A stretch of 36,503 nucleotides of DNA from a virus (taxonomy: Duplodnaviria; Heunggongvirae; Uroviricota; Caudoviricetes), in the IMG/VR virus record IMGVR_UViG_2713896908_000012, positions 1-36,503 of that record; one strand, written 5' to 3'. Position 1 is the first letter of the stretch, and every line of letters starts with the position of its first letter. Both the position numbers and the translations under genes were made by a program. This document shows positions 12,942-19,632 of the stretch, piece by piece. Under the pieces are notes generated by a model. It saw only the letters and a list, made by a program, of their open reading frames with translations. It had not been told where the DNA came from and made no database searches.

Positions 12942-14249
12942 TTAAATCCGAAGTGATGTAACTCTTCCGGTCGGTTTGACAATAGGGAATTGCTTAACAA
13001 TAAAATAACCTCCGGCATCATTCGGGTGATCGTTGCCAGATTTTTTATCAGGCTCACCCTTGTCATCCCAGACCTGTTGCTCCAGAGATTCGGCATATAC
13101 CGGACAACGCTTCACATTAACTTTATAGCGACGCTCACCATTGGCATTGCAGAACATTGCATTCATTGAGTTAACGCGATCTTTTACTGGCGGATTCGAA
13201 CTGTTTACAACAACGTTAAAACCAGCCTGTTTAAGTTGAGCAATATCCGTCGCACTTGCGTTATTTGATTTTCTGGAATCCCCGGATGCATCAGGATAAA
13301 TATAAATTTCCCTTACTTTCCGATAATCATTCCCGTCATATAACCAGAAGCGCTCTTTAATAATACGGATCATATCTGGTGTATCGTAAGCGTTAATGAT
13401 TTCAGTTACTGCACATGGAAGCCCAAAACGTAACACATGAACGACTCCAGCCATTTTTCCGACGTTAAAATCCATCCCGATATATATCGGCTCACCTGGC
13501 TGTTCCTCTTCTTCGCAATTATTCAGTTTTCGGTCAAACTGATGGTAAACAGTACCACTTGTCAGGTTAGTAAACTGTCCTCGAAGATAGGCTTTAATCA
13601 GCTCTGAAGGATATGACTCAAGGAGCGAAGGAATGTAATCTGCTGGCAGATTCTTTTCATTATCGAAAGTAGATGCCTGCACCAGACCATACAGTGAGGC
13701 CAGCTCTGTTTTTTCACGTACGGCTTTAACAAACTGCTCATAGACAAATTTGAATCCTTCCGGCGTGGTTGTAACGTCAATACCGTTGCGAAGTCCATCA
13801 ACCTTATAACGCATACGCGCAATTATCTTGCGCCACGCTGTTCTGGCTTTTTCCTTCGGCAAAATGTCCAGTTCATCCACCAGCGCATTACCAATTTTGA
13901 AACCGACGATCGTTTGCGGCTTCTCCATCGATCTGCAGATAGTGGTTCCACGATACTGACGTCCGTAATAAAAATGAACTTCTTTATTTCCCTCGTTAAT
14001 TTTTACATTTAGCCCCCAGTCGGCAGCAACTTCTTCAACTGTAGGATAAAAAATATCGCGAATTTGTGGATATGTAGGCGCAAAATATCCCTGATTTATA
14101 CCCGGATGCTCCCAAATCCCCTTACATATGCCACCACATCCAACCCATGTTTTACCAGACCCAAAACCAGCAACATAGGCTTTAAATTTATGATGCATAG
14201 AAAGAAATCGCGCCTGAGGCACATTAAGCGTCGGAGAGATCATCTTCAT
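12942..14249 (-). CDS. Terminase large subunit
   Basis: Walker A motif AGFGSGKT near the N-terminus, acidic nuclease-type C-terminal half. Probable start MKMISPT... at ATG 14249 or 14243, overlapping the small-subunit stop; the track ORF extends to 14681 from an upstream TTG, which I regard as an artefact. Confidence 0.85.
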   Translation of the reverse strand: MKMISPTLNVPQARFLSMHHKFKAYVAGFGSGKTWVGCGGICKGIWEHPGINQGYFAPTYPQIRDIFYPTVEEVAADWGLNVKINEGNKEVHFYYGRQYRGTTICRSMEKPQTIVGFKIGNALVDELDILPKEKARTAWRKIIARMRYKVDGLRNGIDVTTTPEGFKFVYEQFVKAVREKTELASLYGLVQASTFDNEKNLPADYIPSLLESYPSELIKAYLRGQFTNLTSGTVYHQFDRKLNNCEEEEQPGEPIYIGMDFNVGKMAGVVHVLRFGLPCAVTEIINAYDTPDMIRIIKERFWLYDGNDYRKVREIYIYPDASGDSRKSNNASATDIAQLKQAGFNVVVNSSNPPVKDRVNSMNAMFCNANGERRYKVNVKRCPVYAESLEQQVWDDKGEPDKKSGNDHPNDAGGYFIVKQFPIVKPTGRVTSLRI

Positions 14250-15306
14250 CACACCTAACTCTGGCATCAACCACATTAATATTGATCGCCACAGGCTGGG
14301 GATGTTCATTACCCTCCACCGTTTCGATCTCTTTGCGCAGTTTCTGGTTTTCCATTCTGCGCCGTTCAATTTCCAGTTCCTGTAGTCGCTTATCTGCACA
14401 TAATGCCCCGCCAGCGGAAAGCAAACGCAATAATTCACGCCGGGCGGCAGCTTTATTCTCCAGCAGGATCTCAACGCCGAATTTTCCGAGCTTTGCTCCT
14501 GCATACAATTGCCGCGCATTTCCATCAAGCAAAGTGGTATCAGCCATATAAAGCTGACCTGTACCTTCTCCACCGCATTTCGGACAGTCTGGATTTGGTA
14601 TGGCGCTATCAACGAAACCGAGGCCACCATATTCAGGTTCTGGTTTACCATCTTTGGATGCCTGCGCGGCAGCCCTGTCAAATTCTGCTATATCGCGCCA
14701 CTGATAGAGGTGATTCTCCCCCCAGCAATAGCGACAGTTAACACGGCGAAATTGCGCAAGCTGATTGGGATCAGCCTGCACGATGGCCATCAACTGACTC
14801 ACCAGTAAATCCAGGTCTGCGGTATAGCGTTTCTGGTAATGATTGCGAAAGTAGCTGATGGCACGAAAAACCCTGGCATTTCTAAGCATACGACTGGCAT
14901 TACTGTTTGCTGTCGCACCTTGCCCCTCGTAACCAGCCAGGCGGTATGCCTCTGTCGGCTTTTTCCCCTGAGCAACCAACATGGCGAATTTTGCCTGCTG
15001 GTCAGAAATACCGAATTCATCGGGGCAGAACGAAATTTCTTCCGTGTCCCCCTCAATCAGGAGTGCATCGGATACAGCCTTTTTTTTCTGAGATTTTCCG
15101 TTTTGCTTTTGCGCAGTCTGCGCAGTTTTTTTTCGCGCAGTTTTGCGCACTTCTGTCTGCGCATTTTTCGGAGGTTTCTTGATGTAACGACGGGCTGTTG
15201 CGTAATTCAGTCCCTTTGCTTCACACCACGCCACCGGAGATACACCGGAGCGGGTGTATTCAGCAATATATTCCTGCTGCAACGCCCCCCAGTCCGGTCT
15301 GCTCAT
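14224..15306 (-). CDS. Terminase small subunit (HTH-containing)
   Basis: 360-aa ORF directly upstream of the large subunit; N-terminal HTH-like segment (...GVSPVAWCEAKGLNYATARRYIKK...), basic linker, CPKCGGEG zinc-ribbon-like motif. Confidence 0.65.
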   Translation of the reverse strand: MSRPDWGALQQEYIAEYTRSGVSPVAWCEAKGLNYATARRYIKKPPKNAQTEVRKTARKKTAQTAQKQNGKSQKKKAVSDALLIEGDTEEISFCPDEFGISDQQAKFAMLVAQGKKPTEAYRLAGYEGQGATANSNASRMLRNARVFRAISYFRNHYQKRYTADLDLLVSQLMAIVQADPNQLAQFRRVNCRYCWGENHLYQWRDIAEFDRAAAQASKDGKPEPEYGGLGFVDSAIPNPDCPKCGGEGTGQLYMADTTLLDGNARQLYAGAKLGKFGVEILLENKAAARRELLRLLSAGGALCADKRLQELEIERRRMENQKLRKEIETVEGNEHPQPVAININVVDARVRCDEDDLSDA

Positions 15307-15309
15307 CAG

Positions 15310-15561
15310 TTAGTCCTGATTTTTATCCACCCTGAGTAATGCACGCAGAGCAAAGGCATCCCCTTTTCTGGCAAGCTTAAACAATGCCGCCCGTAGCTCG
15401 GCTTCACCTTTCGCTCTGCCCTTACGGATGGACGCATAAAAATTTGTCATTGTTTCCCGATTTTCTTTCAGTCTGTTCAGATCAACATCCAGAACGTCAG
15501 CGATTTGTTGTGCAGTCATCCGGCATGCTGCCAGAGACTCGACTTTCGAATACGGAATCAT
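15310..15561 (-). CDS. Small HTH-like DNA-binding protein (hypothetical)
   Basis: 83-aa ORF; likely real start at M15 (15519). Positioned directly upstream of the terminase small subunit. Confidence 0.35.
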   Translation of the reverse strand: MIPYSKVESLAACRMTAQQIADVLDVDLNRLKENRETMTNFYASIRKGRAKGEAELRAALFKLARKGDAFALRALLRVDKNQD

Positions 15562-16447
15562 TTATCACCCCCATTGATATGCAGGGTGTCTTCTTCCTGT
15601 ATTTTTCGTGAAGGATTTTTACTGCAGCGTTGTTCCAGGTGACCTGATGGTGAATGCGTTTATGGCTGGCGCCCATCAGTGAGATTTTTACGCACGACGG
15701 CGCATACATGACGGAGTAAAAACTTTTAACGTAGGTACCGGAATCCAGATACAGTTCGGTCATTCCGCCGCTGTTTTTCTGCGTTTGCTTCTGCCCTAAC
15801 TGGACAGCGCCAATCGTCAAAAACAATTCACCACGACGACCGAGATTCGTGTATGTATTCACATCCTCGTTAATACGCCCCATAAATGAGAATGGTCGGT
15901 CAACAGAACAAATAAAGCTGTTCATTGCTTTGCGTTTCACCCATGCAGCATGACCACCATTATCACCAAGAAAGTCTCCCCCCTGCGCCATAGCGATGGA
16001 AAGCGCAGGAATTGATTCGTAATACGCCAGCATTTCAGAAAGGATCGCGTCCAGTTTCCTTATCGGAAAATAAGCCTGGTCATAGTTGCGATCTACCCGA
16101 AACTGAAACTCGTGATAGTCGTCATCAAGCTGGATGTAGTATTTACACCCAACCTTTTTTGCCAGGCCCAAACAGGCATTCCTGGCATAAAAGATTGAAC
16201 GTCGATCGCCAAAGTTGTCGGCTTCGTCAAAACGACTGGCGATATCGGCTTTGGAAAACACCAGCACCTGCTCACCAAATTCTGCTACGTACTGATGCTG
16301 GGTTTTATCTTCATCATCAACAACGATAAAAATTTTCCCGGTATAGCCAGCACGACGCAACGTCCGGTAAGTCAGAACTTTGTCCGGTCGCCCGTGAGTC
16401 AGAATAAAGGCGCAAAAATCATCACGCATATTACTCCTCCTCGCCAT
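15497..16447 (-). CDS. Hypothetical protein with GT-A-like motifs (IVVDDED, QLDDDYHEF); function unknown
   Basis: 316-aa ORF overlapping the upstream ParB-like gene; no methyltransferase or PAPS-reductase motifs (no FxGxG, NPPY/DPPY, SGGKDS). Acidic Asp-rich motifs resemble the GT2 nucleotide-sugar binding and DxD signatures. Confidence 0.4.
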   Translation of the reverse strand: MARRSNMRDDFCAFILTHGRPDKVLTYRTLRRAGYTGKIFIVVDDEDKTQHQYVAEFGEQVLVFSKADIASRFDEADNFGDRRSIFYARNACLGLAKKVGCKYYIQLDDDYHEFQFRVDRNYDQAYFPIRKLDAILSEMLAYYESIPALSIAMAQGGDFLGDNGGHAAWVKRKAMNSFICSVDRPFSFMGRINEDVNTYTNLGRRGELFLTIGAVQLGQKQTQKNSGGMTELYLDSGTYVKSFYSVMYAPSCVKISLMGASHKRIHHQVTWNNAAVKILHEKYRKKTPCISMGVINDSVFESRVSGSMPDDCTTNR

Positions 16448-17210
16448 GCATGATCTCCACCATGCGCTGCGTCATCCTGACAAACCCATTTTCAATTGCC
16501 TGCTGATAATCAATGATCACCAGAGCCGATTCCTCAAAAAGGCTCTGAATTTCAGCGGGGGCGTGAGCGTAATAGTCCGCGATTCTGCTGAAATTAAACA
16601 CCGTGTGACGTTCTGCCGCGCACAGAAGGAATTTCTCAATATCAGGATCAAGGGACACCGAACGTATCCGGCTGATCAGCTCCTGAGTTTTCGTATCGTC
16701 GTACAGTTCACAGATATCCGGTTTATCGCCTGACGGCTCATAAACAGGCGTATCAATTTTCGTCGTATACGGCTCCTCCTCATTTCCTGTACCAGGCAAA
16801 ATATCCGTCAACAGTTCATCAATTTCTGTCGGGCTGAAGCCTGTCAGGGAGACATCAAAATCAGCATTAATTAGGTCCGACAGCTCCATCCGTAACAGAT
16901 CTTCATCCCAGCCAGCATTCATCGGCAGGCGATTATCTGCCAGACGGTACGCCTTTTTCTGATCATCCGTCAGACCAGACAGAACGATGACCGGAACGAA
17001 ATCCATTTTGAGCACTTCAGCCGCCATAACGCGACCGTGACCCGCAATAACTTCGCCTTTTTCATCAATCAGCACCGGATTAGTCCAGCCAAATTGCTTA
17101 ATGCTTTCTACCAGTTGCGTCACCTGCTCAGGGCTGTGTGTCCTGGCATTGTGTGCATACAGAGACAGTTCTTGTAACGGGCGATAGACGATCTTCAATT
17201 TCTCGCTCAT
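16431..17210 (-). CDS. ParB N-terminal (ParB/sulfiredoxin-fold) domain protein
   Basis: 259-aa ORF with the ParB-box-like motif ...VLIDEKGEVIAGHGRVMAA... near the N-terminus; acidic C-terminal half. Confidence 0.7.
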   Translation of the reverse strand: MSEKLKIVYRPLQELSLYAHNARTHSPEQVTQLVESIKQFGWTNPVLIDEKGEVIAGHGRVMAAEVLKMDFVPVIVLSGLTDDQKKAYRLADNRLPMNAGWDEDLLRMELSDLINADFDVSLTGFSPTEIDELLTDILPGTGNEEEPYTTKIDTPVYEPSGDKPDICELYDDTKTQELISRIRSVSLDPDIEKFLLCAAERHTVFNFSRIADYYAHAPAEIQSLFEESALVIIDYQQAIENGFVRMTQRMVEIMHGEEE

Positions 17211-17229
17211 ACAGCCTCGCTTTATTAAT

Positions 17230-17273
17230 AAAAAAGCCCGCTATCGGCCAGTGCGCTGGGTGCGCGGCGGGTG
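17230..17273 (-). terminator. GC-rich structured hairpin followed by U-run (terminator-like), downstream of the lysis genes
   Basis: GCCCGC...GCGGGU stem enclosing a CCAG-UGCG-CUGG sub-hairpin; U-run on the minus strand (complement of 17230-17235). Lies ~20 nt upstream of the ParB-like gene ribosome-binding site. Confidence 0.35.
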
Positions 17274-17495
17274 CAGATAACGAGCTTTGACATTATCGAA
17301 GCCCCTTATCAAAGGAGCTTCTGTAATGTCAGTCCAGAACGAACGCAACCTTTGTATTTGTCGCTCGCCGTACAAGACGCGCTGCTTCGCGTTGCATTTC
17401 ATCGATAACTTTTGGCGTCATCGGCTGATGCGCATATTTACATTCAATCACTGCAAAAAATCCCGTTCATCGTTTCGCTGTCTGGTGGGATAACT

Positions 17496-17774
17496 TCAAC
17501 GTTTAATCGTGCCATTGGTTTGTGCTGCCCTGTTTTTCTCAAAAGTCCTGATATCAGCCTTATCCCTGTTGCACTGTGCTAACGCTGACAACAATGCAAC
17601 ATTCAGGTTAAGGCTTGCCCCCCACGTAAACGGGTCGGGTAAATCTGGCTGGGGTGTTTCAGCCGTCAGACTGGCTGGTAACGGAACCACCGGCACCGAC
17701 ACGTATACCGTTCGCGTATTCGTGCAACCGCTTAACTGCGCCAGAAGGAACGATACGAACAGCGCAATCATCAT
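17496..17774 (-). CDS. Outer-membrane spanin (Rz1-like lipoprotein), overlapping type
   Basis: Start at M23 gives the signal peptide MMIALFVSFLLAQLSGC with lipobox LSGC, followed by a Pro-rich segment. The reading frame starts inside the Rz-like gene in another frame and extends ~160 nt past its stop. Confidence 0.65.
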   Translation of the reverse strand: MMIALFVSFLLAQLSGCTNTRTVYVSVPVVPLPASLTAETPQPDLPDPFTWGASLNLNVALLSALAQCNRDKADIRTFEKNRAAQTNGTIKR

Positions 17775-19092: not shown

Positions 19093-19632
19093 ATGGGCAT
19101 AGTGCTTTATTCTGCTGACAGAAGAGGCAGATACAATGCAAATACATTAATGAATTTTTCTTCTATAGTGCCGCCTGTAACTGATAGCTACATTGTTGAT
19201 GGTCCTGTTGGGGCGAAGTTTGATTTCAAAATCGCTGAGCATGGTTTGCGATACCTGTTTCCGAGAAGAGACCTAACCAGCACTGATCTCATGGAGCTTA
19301 TTGTTGAACTGGTTCGTCAGCTTCAGTTCCCAACAAAACCATCCAGATACCAGTCAATATTCGCCTGTGAAAAGATAGAGGATGCGAATTATTTTAGAGA
19401 AAATTATCGTGAACACGATGGGCCGCAACCTATTTATGAAATACTGGCAGGTGATAATACAAATATTCACCGTGGTGATATGAGACTTCTTGACATTGAT
19501 TCATTAACAGATAACGCAGCAATAATCTTCACAAAAGCAATCTGGTACTGGTCAGGCATCGCTTCTAACGAACCGTTCTGGGAGTATGTTGTCCCGCTTC
19601 CCGCACAGATCGGCAAGATGGTAATGGAATAA
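19093..19632 (+). CDS. Hypothetical protein (cargo gene on the strand opposite to late transcription)
   Basis: 179-aa ORF with AGGAG ribosome-binding site 6 nt upstream of the ATG; visibly AT-rich compared with flanking phage genes; no motif I recognise. Confidence 0.6.
   Translation: MGIVLYSADRRGRYNANTLMNFSSIVPPVTDSYIVDGPVGAKFDFKIAEHGLRYLFPRRDLTSTDLMELIVELVRQLQFPTKPSRYQSIFACEKIEDANYFRENYREHDGPQPIYEILAGDNTNIHRGDMRLLDIDSLTDNAAIIFTKAIWYWSGIASNEPFWEYVVPLPAQIGKMVME

What the first reader, a model, noticed from the sequence alone, without database searches (positions are those of the whole stretch)
15497..17210. ParB-like protein paired with a GT-A-like 316-aa protein between lysis and terminase genes
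The two genes overlap and sit in a position where lambdoid phages often carry DNA-modification or anti-restriction cargo. The 316-aa protein has no methyltransferase or PAPS-reductase signatures but has acidic motifs (IVVDDED; QLDDDYHEF) reminiscent of GT2 glycosyltransferases. It could be a DNA hypermodification or anti-defence module; I cannot assign it to a described system.
Basis: inference. Interest (0 to 1): 0.6.

Follow-up and report, generated by a model that had tools for sequence, protein, structure and literature searches.

The report
Orphan phage sugar-transferase with ParB-like partner
A Rac-type prophage carries, just ahead of its DNA-packaging genes, a sugar-adding enzyme from the family that glycosylates DNA bases plus a conserved ParB-like partner, yet it encodes no enzyme to make the hydroxymethylated bases such enzymes normally need, so its target is an open, testable question.

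Summary
Both ORFs are real. The 316-aa protein (probably 310 aa, starting at ATG 16429) belongs to Pfam TAGT (PF20691, E 1.5e-35). This GT-A family includes the base-J glucosyltransferase, the T2/T6 second-glucose transferase and phage 5hmC glycosyltransferases.

The 259-aa protein (E. coli ynaK type) has three parts: a ParB/Srx nucleotide-binding N-domain, an invariant Tyr-rich linker motif, and an uncharacterised helical C-domain.

The pair is an obligate module. A partner gene abuts the GT in 57 of 59 diverse loci, spanning many bacterial phyla and an archaeal virus. The module sits either at the head of the packaging operon or inside replisome gene clusters. Minimal partners keep only the motif and C-domain.

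No TET/JBP dioxygenase, hydroxymethylase or C5-methyltransferase was found in the window, in a related E. coli prophage, or in six Pfam-labelled metagenomic contexts. The deposited annotations of complete phage genomes c5 and phi jlb1 name none either.

Best reading (about 0.45): partner-dependent glycosylation of phage DNA late in infection, acceptor unknown. Main rival (about 0.25): the partner's invariant Tyr/Thr motif is itself the acceptor.

This is a new variant of a known kind. Interest 0.6.

The parts
15497..16429 (-). TAGT-family GT-A glycosyltransferase gene. It is 310 aa from the conserved start; the longest ORF extends to 16447 (316 aa).
16118..16126 (-). DxD motif (D108-D109-D110 in 316-aa numbering), the predicted metal and NDP-sugar binding site.
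   Evidence: Translates to DDD. Invariant in alignment A1. Corresponds to the 'DDD' of the R...DDD...ED(Y/F) active-site signature reported for JGT-like phage GT-A enzymes (bioRxiv 10.1101/2023.12.21.572611).
15578..15778 (-). Conserved basic C-terminal extension of the GT (aa 224-290 of the 316-aa ORF). It lies outside the Pfam TAGT model.
   Evidence: Sequence is KNSGGMTELYLDSGTYVKSFYSV.... It holds many invariant residues: G227 G228 M229 T230 Y233 G237 T238 K241 F243 Y244 P250 R264 H266 H267 W271. pI 9.7, net charge +7. Low AF2 confidence. Matches phrog_31222.
16434..16442 (-). Shine-Dalgarno sequence GAGGAGGAG for the GT, located inside the 3' end of the partner gene.
   Evidence: Read directly from the sequence.
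16431..17210 (-). Partner gene (ynaK type, 259 aa): ParB/Srx N-domain, linker motif and C-terminal domain. The protein is very acidic.
   Evidence: phrog_620 E 1e-86. Pfam ParB_N scores 24.7 bits, just below the 26.3 cut-off. PGAP name ynaK. pI 4.49, net charge -25.
16806..17210 (-). ParB/Srx nucleotide-binding N-domain (aa 1-135). It is of the subtype found fused to phage DNA methyltransferases.
16731..16775 (-). Invariant linker motif EPYTTKIDTPVYEPS, consensus Y-[TS]-x-K-[IV]-x-x-P-x-Y-x-P, in a segment predicted to be disordered.
   Evidence: Translation confirmed. Y148 68/68, T/S149 67/68, P155 68/68, Y157 69/69 across diverse partners including archaeal virus HHTV-2. AF2 pLDDT is below 50 for aa 136-157.
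16446..16715 (-). Partner C-terminal helical domain (aa 166-255). With the motif, it is the part retained in all minimal partner forms.
17211..17495 (.). Non-coding spacer between Rz1 and the partner gene, containing a 20-nt inverted repeat at 17288-17331.
   Evidence: Inverted repeat found. No sigma-70-like promoter found in 15200-17700. No Rfam match. Its function was not tested.
15310..15561 (-). 83-aa ORF immediately downstream that overlaps the GT 3' tail. It resembles an internal segment of terminase small subunits.
   Evidence: phrog_309 E 2e-21. It is followed by TerS at 14224-15306 (Terminase_2 and phrog_51).

Best explanation
The two genes form an autonomous two-protein glycosylation module that acts on phage DNA late in infection. 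The basic GT-A enzyme (TAGT family) takes a sugar from a host nucleotide-sugar through its DxD site. The acidic partner binds it through the invariant Tyr-rich motif and the C-terminal domain. In this phage the partner's ParB/Srx nucleotide-binding N-domain couples the enzyme to double-stranded DNA, in the way a ParB-like activator is needed by phage thymine dioxygenase 5mYOX176 on dsDNA. The module is transcribed as part of the Q-dependent late operon immediately before terS and terL, so replicated concatemers would be decorated just before or during packaging, presumably to blunt host nucleases. What is shown: family membership, fold, catalytic motifs, the obligate pairing, the DNA-transaction gene contexts, and the absence of any hydroxymethyl-pyrimidine pathway. 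What is inferred: that DNA is the acceptor, that the partner activates or targets the GT, and that the role is protective. What is unknown: the acceptor atom, since no 5hmC or 5hmU source exists.
For: (1) Family: Pfam TAGT E 1.5e-35. Members with published activity act on DNA bases or on sugars attached to them: JGT and phage 5hmC GT-A enzymes, and the T2/T6 beta-glucosyl-HMC-alpha-GT. R20, D108-D110 and E194-D195 match the published R...DDD...ED signature.
(2) Fold: GT-A.
(3) Pairing: a partner gene abuts the GT in 57 of 59 loci from many phyla. The same holds in cultured phages c5, phi jlb1, NTR1 and Porphyromonas phage005b, and in archaeal virus HHTV-2.
(4) Context is always a DNA transaction. 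At least 35 of 53 loci have TerL or portal within five genes downstream, across five terminase lineages. In c5 the pair follows cos directly. The short-partner pairs sit between a family-A DNA polymerase and a beta-clamp homologue, next to a primase-helicase, or among primase, exonuclease and helicase genes.
(5) The partner's N-domain is the subtype physically fused to DNA N6/N4 methyltransferases (PMC12704722).
(6) Precedent: a ParB-like protein with an NBD and a CTD but no HTH is required by a phage DNA dioxygenase on dsDNA (PMC13229309).
(7) NTP-pocket residues are conserved: N21 53/53, G57 53/54, R60 46/54, N93 52/54.
(8) No promoter-like site lies upstream, which fits late-operon expression.
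(9) Fusions to sugar-type methyltransferase, sulfotransferase, P-loop kinase-like and second GT domains indicate glycan building.
Against: No enzyme able to create a hydroxyl acceptor on DNA (TET/JBP, ThyS-like hydroxymethylase, C5-methyltransferase) was found in the window, in a PGAP-annotated E. coli relative, or in six Pfam-labelled metagenomic contexts. None is named in the deposited annotations of complete phage genomes c5 and phi jlb1, and their largest unassigned ORFs have no Pfam hit. No TAGT member with published activity that I found glycosylates unmodified DNA. The partner is strongly acidic in all three of its regions (pI 4.5; family median 4.6) and has no HTH, so it is unlikely to bind DNA on its own. 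Some lineages lack the ParB/Srx domain entirely. GREB1, a TAGT relative, glycosylates a protein (PMC7968844). The authors who mined these enzymes judged GT contigs without 5mYOX or ThyS 'less likely' to be DNA-modifying. No modification data exist for any phage carrying the pair.
Confidence: 0.45

Rival explanations
1. Protein glycosylation. The partner itself is the acceptor. The GT would O-glycosylate the invariant Tyr/Thr of the disordered linker motif (Y148, T149, Y157), as glycogenin does on its own Tyr, as SunS does on a neighbouring peptide, or as GREB1 does on ER-alpha. The glycosylated acidic protein, or another glycosylated replication or packaging protein, would then carry the function.
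Against: The other TAGT members with published activity that I found act on DNA bases or base-linked sugars. The gene contexts are replisome or terminase rather than structural or secretory. The ParB/Srx N-domain is of the DNA-methyltransferase-fused subtype. A conserved peptide in a disordered linker is equally expected for a docking motif. The ParB-activator precedent for a DNA enzyme also counts against it.
Confidence: 0.25
2. The GT acts on hydroxymethylated or already glycosylated bases supplied in trans. It would be either a relic of a TET/JBP-ParB-GT pathway that lost its dioxygenase, or a prophage weapon that over-glycosylates the hmC DNA of invading T-even-like phages.
For: The family name and the T2/T6 enzyme chemistry fit this. 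ParB, GT and terminase commonly co-occur with 5mYOX. The anti-phage idea was raised by the authors of the GT preprint.
Against: The pair is conserved with intact catalytic residues across about 1,300 50%-identity clusters and many phyla without a dioxygenase, which is not what a relic looks like. It occurs in phage c5, whose genome annotation names no integrase or repressor, and in an archaeal virus. In the window it has no promoter-like site of its own and lies in the late operon, so it should be silent in a lysogen.
Confidence: 0.07
3. The ParB-like protein is a packaging accessory for pac or cos recognition, or a nuclease, as HNH proteins are in HK97-like phages. The GT would be functionally separate cargo, for example one that modifies envelope glycans or virion proteins.
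For: The position is immediately next to cos in c5 and upstream of terS/terL in most loci. In NTR1 the pair directly precedes TerL with no terS annotated between them. ParB_N has a historical 'nuclease' label. GT2 genes sit next to capsid genes in L005.
Against: Adjacency with the GT in 57 of 59 loci, and retention of only the non-ParB part of the partner in replisome-context phages, are not explained. The GT has no detected membrane or secretion domain (no such Pfam family; soluble GT-A model). The hosts span Gram-negative bacteria, Gram-positive bacteria and archaea, which have unrelated envelopes.
Confidence: 0.05

Closest known systems
Phage post-replicative hypermodification clusters: C5-MTase or thymine, then 5mYOX (TET/JBP), then a GT-A glycosyltransferase, often with ParB and terminase nearby (PMC8256090; bioRxiv 10.1101/2023.12.21.572611; PMC13229309)
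   Same: Same GT family and active-site signature. A ParB-like protein with an NBD and a CTD but no HTH. Proximity to terminase. Glycan-tailoring enzymes in relatives.
   Different: No 5mYOX, ThyS or C5-MTase was found in any genome or context examined here. The GT rather than a dioxygenase is the ParB-like protein's invariable neighbour. The partner's motif+CTD module was not mentioned in the passages of these papers that I searched.
ParB-dependent T-dioxygenase pair 5mYOX176/ParB176 (PMC13229309)
   Same: A two-gene enzyme and ParB-like activator logic. The partner lacks a DNA-binding domain and its NTP-pocket residues are conserved.
   Different: The enzyme here is a glycosyltransferase. 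I could not compare sequences because none are held in the library. The canonical catalytic Glu is His or Asn here.
Base-J glucosyltransferase (JGT) of kinetoplastids
   Same: According to the preprint, phage GT-A DNA glycosyltransferases with the R...DDD...ED(Y/F) signature are its closest structural matches. The window GT carries that signature.
   Different: JGT uses 5hmU made by JBP1/2. No JBP-like enzyme is present here. A direct structural comparison could not be run because afdb50 was unavailable.
T2/T6 beta-glucosyl-HMC-alpha-glucosyltransferase (PF20691; PMC13216743, PMC13390438)
   Same: Same Pfam family, and the source of the PHROG label for this protein.
   Different: Only T4-like Aeromonas phages with similarly annotated genes were matched, at 23-26% identity. 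The T2/T6 enzyme adds a second glucose to glucosyl-hmC in phages that make hmC before replication. No partner gene is reported for it.
ParB/Srx-DNA methyltransferase fusions of prophages (PMC12704722; phrog_498; PADLOC MTase_II)
   Same: Closest N-domain subtype. [quoted passage not shown]
   Different: There the domain is fused to a methyltransferase. Here it is a separate protein with an extra motif and CTD, paired with a GT.
GREB1 (PMC7968844), and glycogenin or SunS-type GT-A protein/peptide glycosyltransferases
   Same: GT-A fold. GREB1 is a TAGT relative (PGAP names this protein 'GREB1-related'). The acceptor is encoded next to or within the enzyme gene.
   Different: Those enzymes act in unrelated biological settings. 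No evidence yet shows that the partner protein here is glycosylated.

Membership tests
TAGT (Pfam PF20691, TET-associated glycosyltransferase) | Match to the family HMM above the curated cut-off | tested here: met
   123.4 bits against a cut-off of 27.5, aa 14-228, profile positions 4-205 of 205. The best BFVD structural matches are TAGT proteins.
TAGT (Pfam PF20691, TET-associated glycosyltransferase) | GT-A fold with a DxD motif and the R...DDD...ED(Y/F) active-site signature | tested here: met
TAGT (Pfam PF20691, TET-associated glycosyltransferase) | Genomic association with a TET/JBP (5mYOX) dioxygenase or a pyrimidine hydroxymethylase that makes the acceptor | tested here: not met
   None was found in the window, in the E. 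coli Rac-type prophage, or in six Pfam-labelled contexts. None is named in the annotations of complete phage genomes c5 and phi jlb1. It is not among the recurrent families in replisome-context loci (only 25 of 36 families were displayed).
TAGT (Pfam PF20691, TET-associated glycosyltransferase) | Transfers sugar to 5hmC, 5hmU or a base-linked sugar in DNA | not testable with these tools
   Requires biochemistry or nucleoside mass spectrometry.
ParB/Srx (ParB-CTPase fold, PF02195) | N-terminal ParB/Srx fold | tested here: met
ParB/Srx (ParB-CTPase fold, PF02195) | Nucleotide-binding motifs (NxR, S...G, GxxR, N of box III) | tested here: met
   N21 53/53, R23 47/53, S36 47/54, G41 45/54, G57 53/54, R60 46/54, N93 52/54. 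GHGR is at 17031-17042. The catalytic Glu of GERR is His (35) or Asn (19) and never Glu, so hydrolysis may differ.
Canonical partition ParB (ParABS) | HTH DNA-binding domain, a ParA partner and a ParA-binding motif, and a parS site | tested here: not met
   No HTH domain by Pfam or in the model. TIGR00180 scores 32.9 bits against a cut-off of 58.45. No ParA-type ATPase among the window ORFs. parS was not searched for specifically.
5mYOX-associated activator ParB (PMC13229309) | NBD plus CTD architecture without a DNA-binding domain | tested here: met
5mYOX-associated activator ParB (PMC13229309) | A cognate 5mYOX gene in the neighbourhood, and activation of that enzyme on dsDNA | tested here: not met
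   No 5mYOX in any context examined (see above). Activation of a partner enzyme cannot be tested here.

The most novel reading that the evidence does not exclude
The pair glycosylates canonical DNA that carries no hydroxymethyl group, directly on a base heteroatom, the backbone or the genome ends. That would be a new DNA-modification chemistry. The ParB/Srx-motif-CTD protein would be the obligatory co-factor that gives the GT access to duplex DNA. By prevalence, this chemistry would be present in about one in six complete E. coli genomes and in phages of many phyla and of haloarchaea.
Probability: 0.2. Interest if true: 0.9.

Novelty: new variant of a known kind. Interest (0 to 1): 0.6.

Why it matters
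The phage DNA glycosylation systems described in the papers I read start from a hydroxylated pyrimidine: 5hmC or 5hmU (T-even phages, base J, the phage TET pathways) or 5-hydroxycytosine (RB69-type arabinosylation). This module is widespread. It covers at least 80% of the query in 889 of 5,426 complete E. coli genomes. It forms about 1,300 50%-identity clusters across Proteobacteria, Bacteroidota, Firmicutes, Actinobacteria and others, and it occurs in a haloarchaeal virus. It belongs to that enzyme family yet comes with no way to make such a base. The authors who mined these enzymes set aside the roughly 65% of GT contigs lacking 5mYOX or ThyS as unlikely DNA modifiers. The analysis here shows that at least this subclass is a tightly conserved two-protein unit embedded in packaging or replisome operons, which argues that it does something important to DNA or to the DNA machinery. 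Either outcome would be new: a DNA sugar modification that needs no pre-oxidised base, or a conserved Tyr/Thr-glycosylated phage protein. The system sits in E. coli prophages and in small cultured Lactobacillus phages, so the question can be tested directly. It would also give the Rac gene ynaK a function and extend the emerging role of ParB-fold proteins as partners of DNA-modifying enzymes.

Tried and rejected
- **Cryptic TET/JBP, 2OG dioxygenase, ThyS-like hydroxymethylase or C5-MTase.** I scanned every window ORF of about 90 aa or more against Pfam, read the annotation of an E. coli relative and three complete viral genomes, and looked at six Pfam-labelled contexts. None was found.
- **Real 5mYOX and ParB176 sequences for a custom HMM.** The supplements of PMC13229309 and PMC8256090 are not held, and the bioRxiv tables contain no sequences. 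The founding TAGT paper (Iyer 2013, PMC3763556) is not held either.
- **NCBIfam and PADLOC on the GT.** No hits.
- **PDB sequence search with the GT.** Nothing.
- **True ParB-GT fusion (Rosetta stone).** Only P0079 and P0374 were found. Both look like frameshift or deletion products, so I rejected them as evidence.
- **ThyX-like reading of a conserved 225-242-aa ORF in replisome-context relatives.** No PDB sequence support, so I dropped it.
- **Regulatory signals near the pair.** There was no promoter-like site and no Rfam hit. The only terminator-like hits were fewer than the shuffled-sequence expectation, and one lies on the opposite strand.
- **AFDB Foldseek to test the JGT relationship directly.** The library was unavailable.
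- **Lysogenic-conversion and superinfection-exclusion readings.** I considered these and ranked them low. The pair occurs in phage c5, whose annotation names no lysogeny genes. It also occurs in hosts with unrelated envelopes, and it lacks its own promoter here.
Full report
**Observation**

The window is a nearly complete Rac/lambdoid-type prophage. It runs from integrase, RecE/RecT and a YdaS/T/U/V-type replication module, through a Q-like DUF1133 protein, holin, endolysin and Rz/Rz1, to TerS, TerL, portal, head and tail genes.

The quoted acidic motifs are present.

The 17-nt overlap is probably an artefact of using the longest ORF:
- All homologues begin at MRDDF, which is M7 of the 316-aa ORF.
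- That ATG (16429) lies 1 nt after the upstream stop codon.
- It is preceded by GAGGAGGAG.

**What the proteins are**

R20, D108-D110 and E194 are invariant, and D195 is at least 90% conserved. This reproduces the R...DDD...ED signature reported for JGT-like phage GT-A enzymes that glycosylate 5hmC in DNA (bioRxiv 10.1101/2023.12.21.572611). TAGT also contains the T2/T6 enzyme that adds the second glucose to glucosyl-hmC (PMC13216743, PMC13390438). It is related to GREB1, a protein O-GlcNAc transferase (PMC7968844).

A conserved basic C-terminal extension lies outside the Pfam model and is modelled poorly (316-aa numbering 224-290; pI 9.7).

The nucleotide-pocket residues are conserved across 54 full-length relatives. 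The catalytic Glu of the canonical GERR box is always His or Asn.

After the N-domain comes a predicted-disordered linker carrying the motif Y-[TS]-x-K-[IV]-x-x-P-x-Y-x-P. Y148, P155 and Y157 are invariant in 68-69 sequences from many phyla. Then follows a helical C-domain with invariant R201, E226 and D234. It has no credible relative among solved structures. There is no HTH domain, no ParA and no partition-type score. The protein is very acidic: pI 4.5, net charge -25, family median pI 4.6. The GT is basic, with a family median pI of 8.8.

**How common and how linked**

- The pair covers at least 80% of the query in 889 of 5,426 complete E. coli genomes, at about 93% identity.
- The GT subfamily has at least 7,743 90%-identity clusters in the word-index search.
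- It has 1,334 50%-identity clusters at E up to 1e-3.

I fetched 66 loci from one-genome-per-species GTDB contigs spanning Proteobacteria, Bacteroidota, Firmicutes, Negativicutes, Planctomycetota, Acidobacteriota, Saccharibacteria and others. With three metagenomic loci added, I scanned all of them with profiles of both proteins. Of 59 loci with at least 700 nt upstream of the GT, 57 have a partner ORF ending within a few bases of the GT start on the same strand. The two exceptions are truncated GT fragments. Everything else in the neighbourhoods varies (751 clusters).

The same pair occurs in cultured viruses:
- Lactobacillus delbrueckii phages c5, LL-Ku, phiLdb and relatives
- L. gasseri phage phi jlb1
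- Nocardia phage NTR1
- A Porphyromonas phage, at only 26% GT identity
- 191-kb Vibrio phages
- The haloarchaeal virus HHTV-2

.

**Context**

In at least 35 of 53 loci with enough downstream sequence, a terminase large subunit or portal lies within five genes downstream. Most of the remainder have an unclassified 440-670-aa ORF at that position.

The terminases belong to at least five lineages:
- Terminase_6 (this window)
- Terminase_3
- T7-type
- TerL_ATPase
- GpA

.

In phage c5 the pair is ORF1 and ORF2, directly after the cos site and before terS, terL and portal.

A second architecture exists. In several lineages the partner is only 113-144 aa and matches only the motif+C-domain part of the profile, without the ParB/Srx domain. 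These pairs sit inside replication modules:
- Between a family-A DNA polymerase and a beta-clamp homologue (L120, L124, L139)
- After a Toprim-DnaB primase-helicase (L110)
- Among primase, exonuclease and helicase genes (Vibrio phage pv27)

.

L139 has two successive partner+GT pairs, and L120 has a GT on either side of its partner gene. The GT's indispensable companion is therefore the motif+C-domain module. The ParB/Srx domain is an add-on that predominates in the packaging-operon architecture. Relatives also show the GT fused to sugar-type SAM methyltransferases, a carbohydrate sulfotransferase, a P-loop kinase-like domain or a second TAGT. This points to glycan elaboration.

**The missing acceptor pathway**

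The TAGT reactions on DNA described in the papers I read need 5hmC, 5hmU or a sugar already attached to them. I found no TET/JBP, 2OG dioxygenase, thymidylate-synthase-like hydroxymethylase or C5-methyltransferase in any of the following:
- Any window ORF
- A PGAP-annotated E. coli Rac-type relative, covering J through intR
- Six Pfam-labelled metagenomic contexts with up to 10-kb flanks
- The recurrent families of the replisome-context loci (only 25 of 36 families were displayed, so singletons cannot be excluded)

The deposited annotations of complete genomes c5 (31.8 kb) and phi jlb1 (38.3 kb) name none either, and their largest unassigned ORFs have no Pfam hit.

The GT preprint notes that about 65% of roughly 25,000 mined GT contigs lacked a 5mYOX or ThyS neighbour, and regarded them as less likely to be DNA modifiers. 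This window belongs to that unexplained majority.

**Mechanism**

I commit to partner-dependent glycosylation of phage DNA late in infection (about 0.45). Six lines of evidence support this reading:
- The chemistry of the family
- The two DNA-transaction contexts
- The methyltransferase-type ParB/Srx domain
- The published case of a ParB-like protein (NBD plus CTD, no HTH) that a phage thymine dioxygenase needs specifically on dsDNA (PMC13229309)
- The complementary charges of the two proteins
- The absence of a promoter-like site of its own in the late operon

The acceptor is unknown and would have to be something present in ordinary DNA. That is the main weakness of this reading.

The principal rival (about 0.25) is that the invariant Tyr/Thr motif of the partner is itself the acceptor, as in glycogenin, SunS/SunA or GREB1. 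It explains the motif, the minimal partners and the tandem partner+GT arrangements. It also removes the acceptor problem. It does not explain the DNA-centred contexts or the ParB/Srx domain.

Other readings rank low:
- **Relic or in-trans readings, including anti-phage over-glycosylation**. The module is conserved without a dioxygenase. It occurs in phage c5, whose annotation names no integrase or repressor. It should be silent in a lysogen.
- **A packaging-nuclease role for the ParB-like protein with an unrelated GT.** This does not explain the near-absolute linkage.

**Novelty and score**

What I did not find described in the papers I could read:
- An autonomous ParB-like/TAGT pair that lacks any precursor pathway
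- The invariant Tyr motif and the novel C-domain as the GT's true partner module
- The two architectures, packaging and replisome
- The reach into archaeal viruses

I classify it as a new variant of a known kind, with interest 0.6. The most novel reading not excluded is direct glycosylation of canonical DNA (probability about 0.2, interest about 0.9 if true).

**Limits**

- There are no experimental data on any carrier phage.
- The 5mYOX search relied on Pfam-level annotation and deposited annotations rather than phage-specific 5mYOX profiles.
- The founding TAGT paper could not be read.
- Complex prediction and an AFDB comparison could not be run.
- My locus survey used longest-ORF calling and profiles built from relatives at least 54% identical to the window proteins.

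Noticed in passing
window 19093-19632 (+): A 179-aa DUF2441 protein on the opposite strand to all surrounding late genes, in a low-GC dip (0.41), between the Q-like gene and the holin. It looks like moron-type cargo. No PADLOC hit.
   Followed up: partly
window 15310-15561 (-): An 83-aa ORF between the GT and TerS that matches only an internal segment of terminase small subunits (phrog_309, positions 145-215). It overlaps the non-conserved GT C-terminal tail by 65 nt.
   Followed up: no
window 12942-14681 (-): The longest TerL ORF (TTG start) overlaps TerS by 458 nt. Pfam and PHROG matches begin at residue 147 or later, so the real TerL start is probably near 14243.
   Followed up: partly
window 17211-17495: A 285-nt spacer between Rz1 and the partner gene holds a 20-nt inverted repeat (17288-17331, 85% complementary) and a 53-aa ORF (17241-17402, minus strand). 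In phage c5 the equivalent position is the cos site, so this could hold a packaging or regulatory signal.
   Followed up: no
E. coli K-12 ynaK (homologue of window 16431-17210): In an overexpression screen, K-12 ynaK raised the MIC of six antibiotics. The authors call it their most interesting hit and offer no mechanism (PMC12924614).
   Followed up: no
L139 15671-16399; L120 9614-10291: Replisome-context relatives share a conserved 225-242-aa ORF of unknown function (motif WW.EFDTYK.GT..NSCS.MHKIH) with no PDB sequence relative. Across the five replisome-context loci scanned, Pfam also found a MazZ-type dATP/dGTP diphosphohydrolase N-domain (PF18909) in two proteins, and a PAPS-reductase domain and a Caps_synth GT in one protein each. 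These hint at other nucleotide or DNA chemistry in those phages.
   Followed up: partly
L008 (E. coli ECSC054 Rac-type prophage) 27747-31140: The E. coli relative carries the IteA/IteS anti-phage pair in its nin-like region and trkG inserted next to a truncated ynaK. The window has neither, and its ynaK-type gene is intact.
   Followed up: no
L159 (Nocardia phage NTR1) 3-3408: The partner-like Orf1 and the GT are followed directly by TerL, with no small-terminase gene annotated between them.
   Followed up: no
L001 1357-3938; L135 8397-10858; L137 2614-6161: Some loci have one partner followed by two TAGT paralogues, which suggests sequential sugar additions.
   Followed up: no
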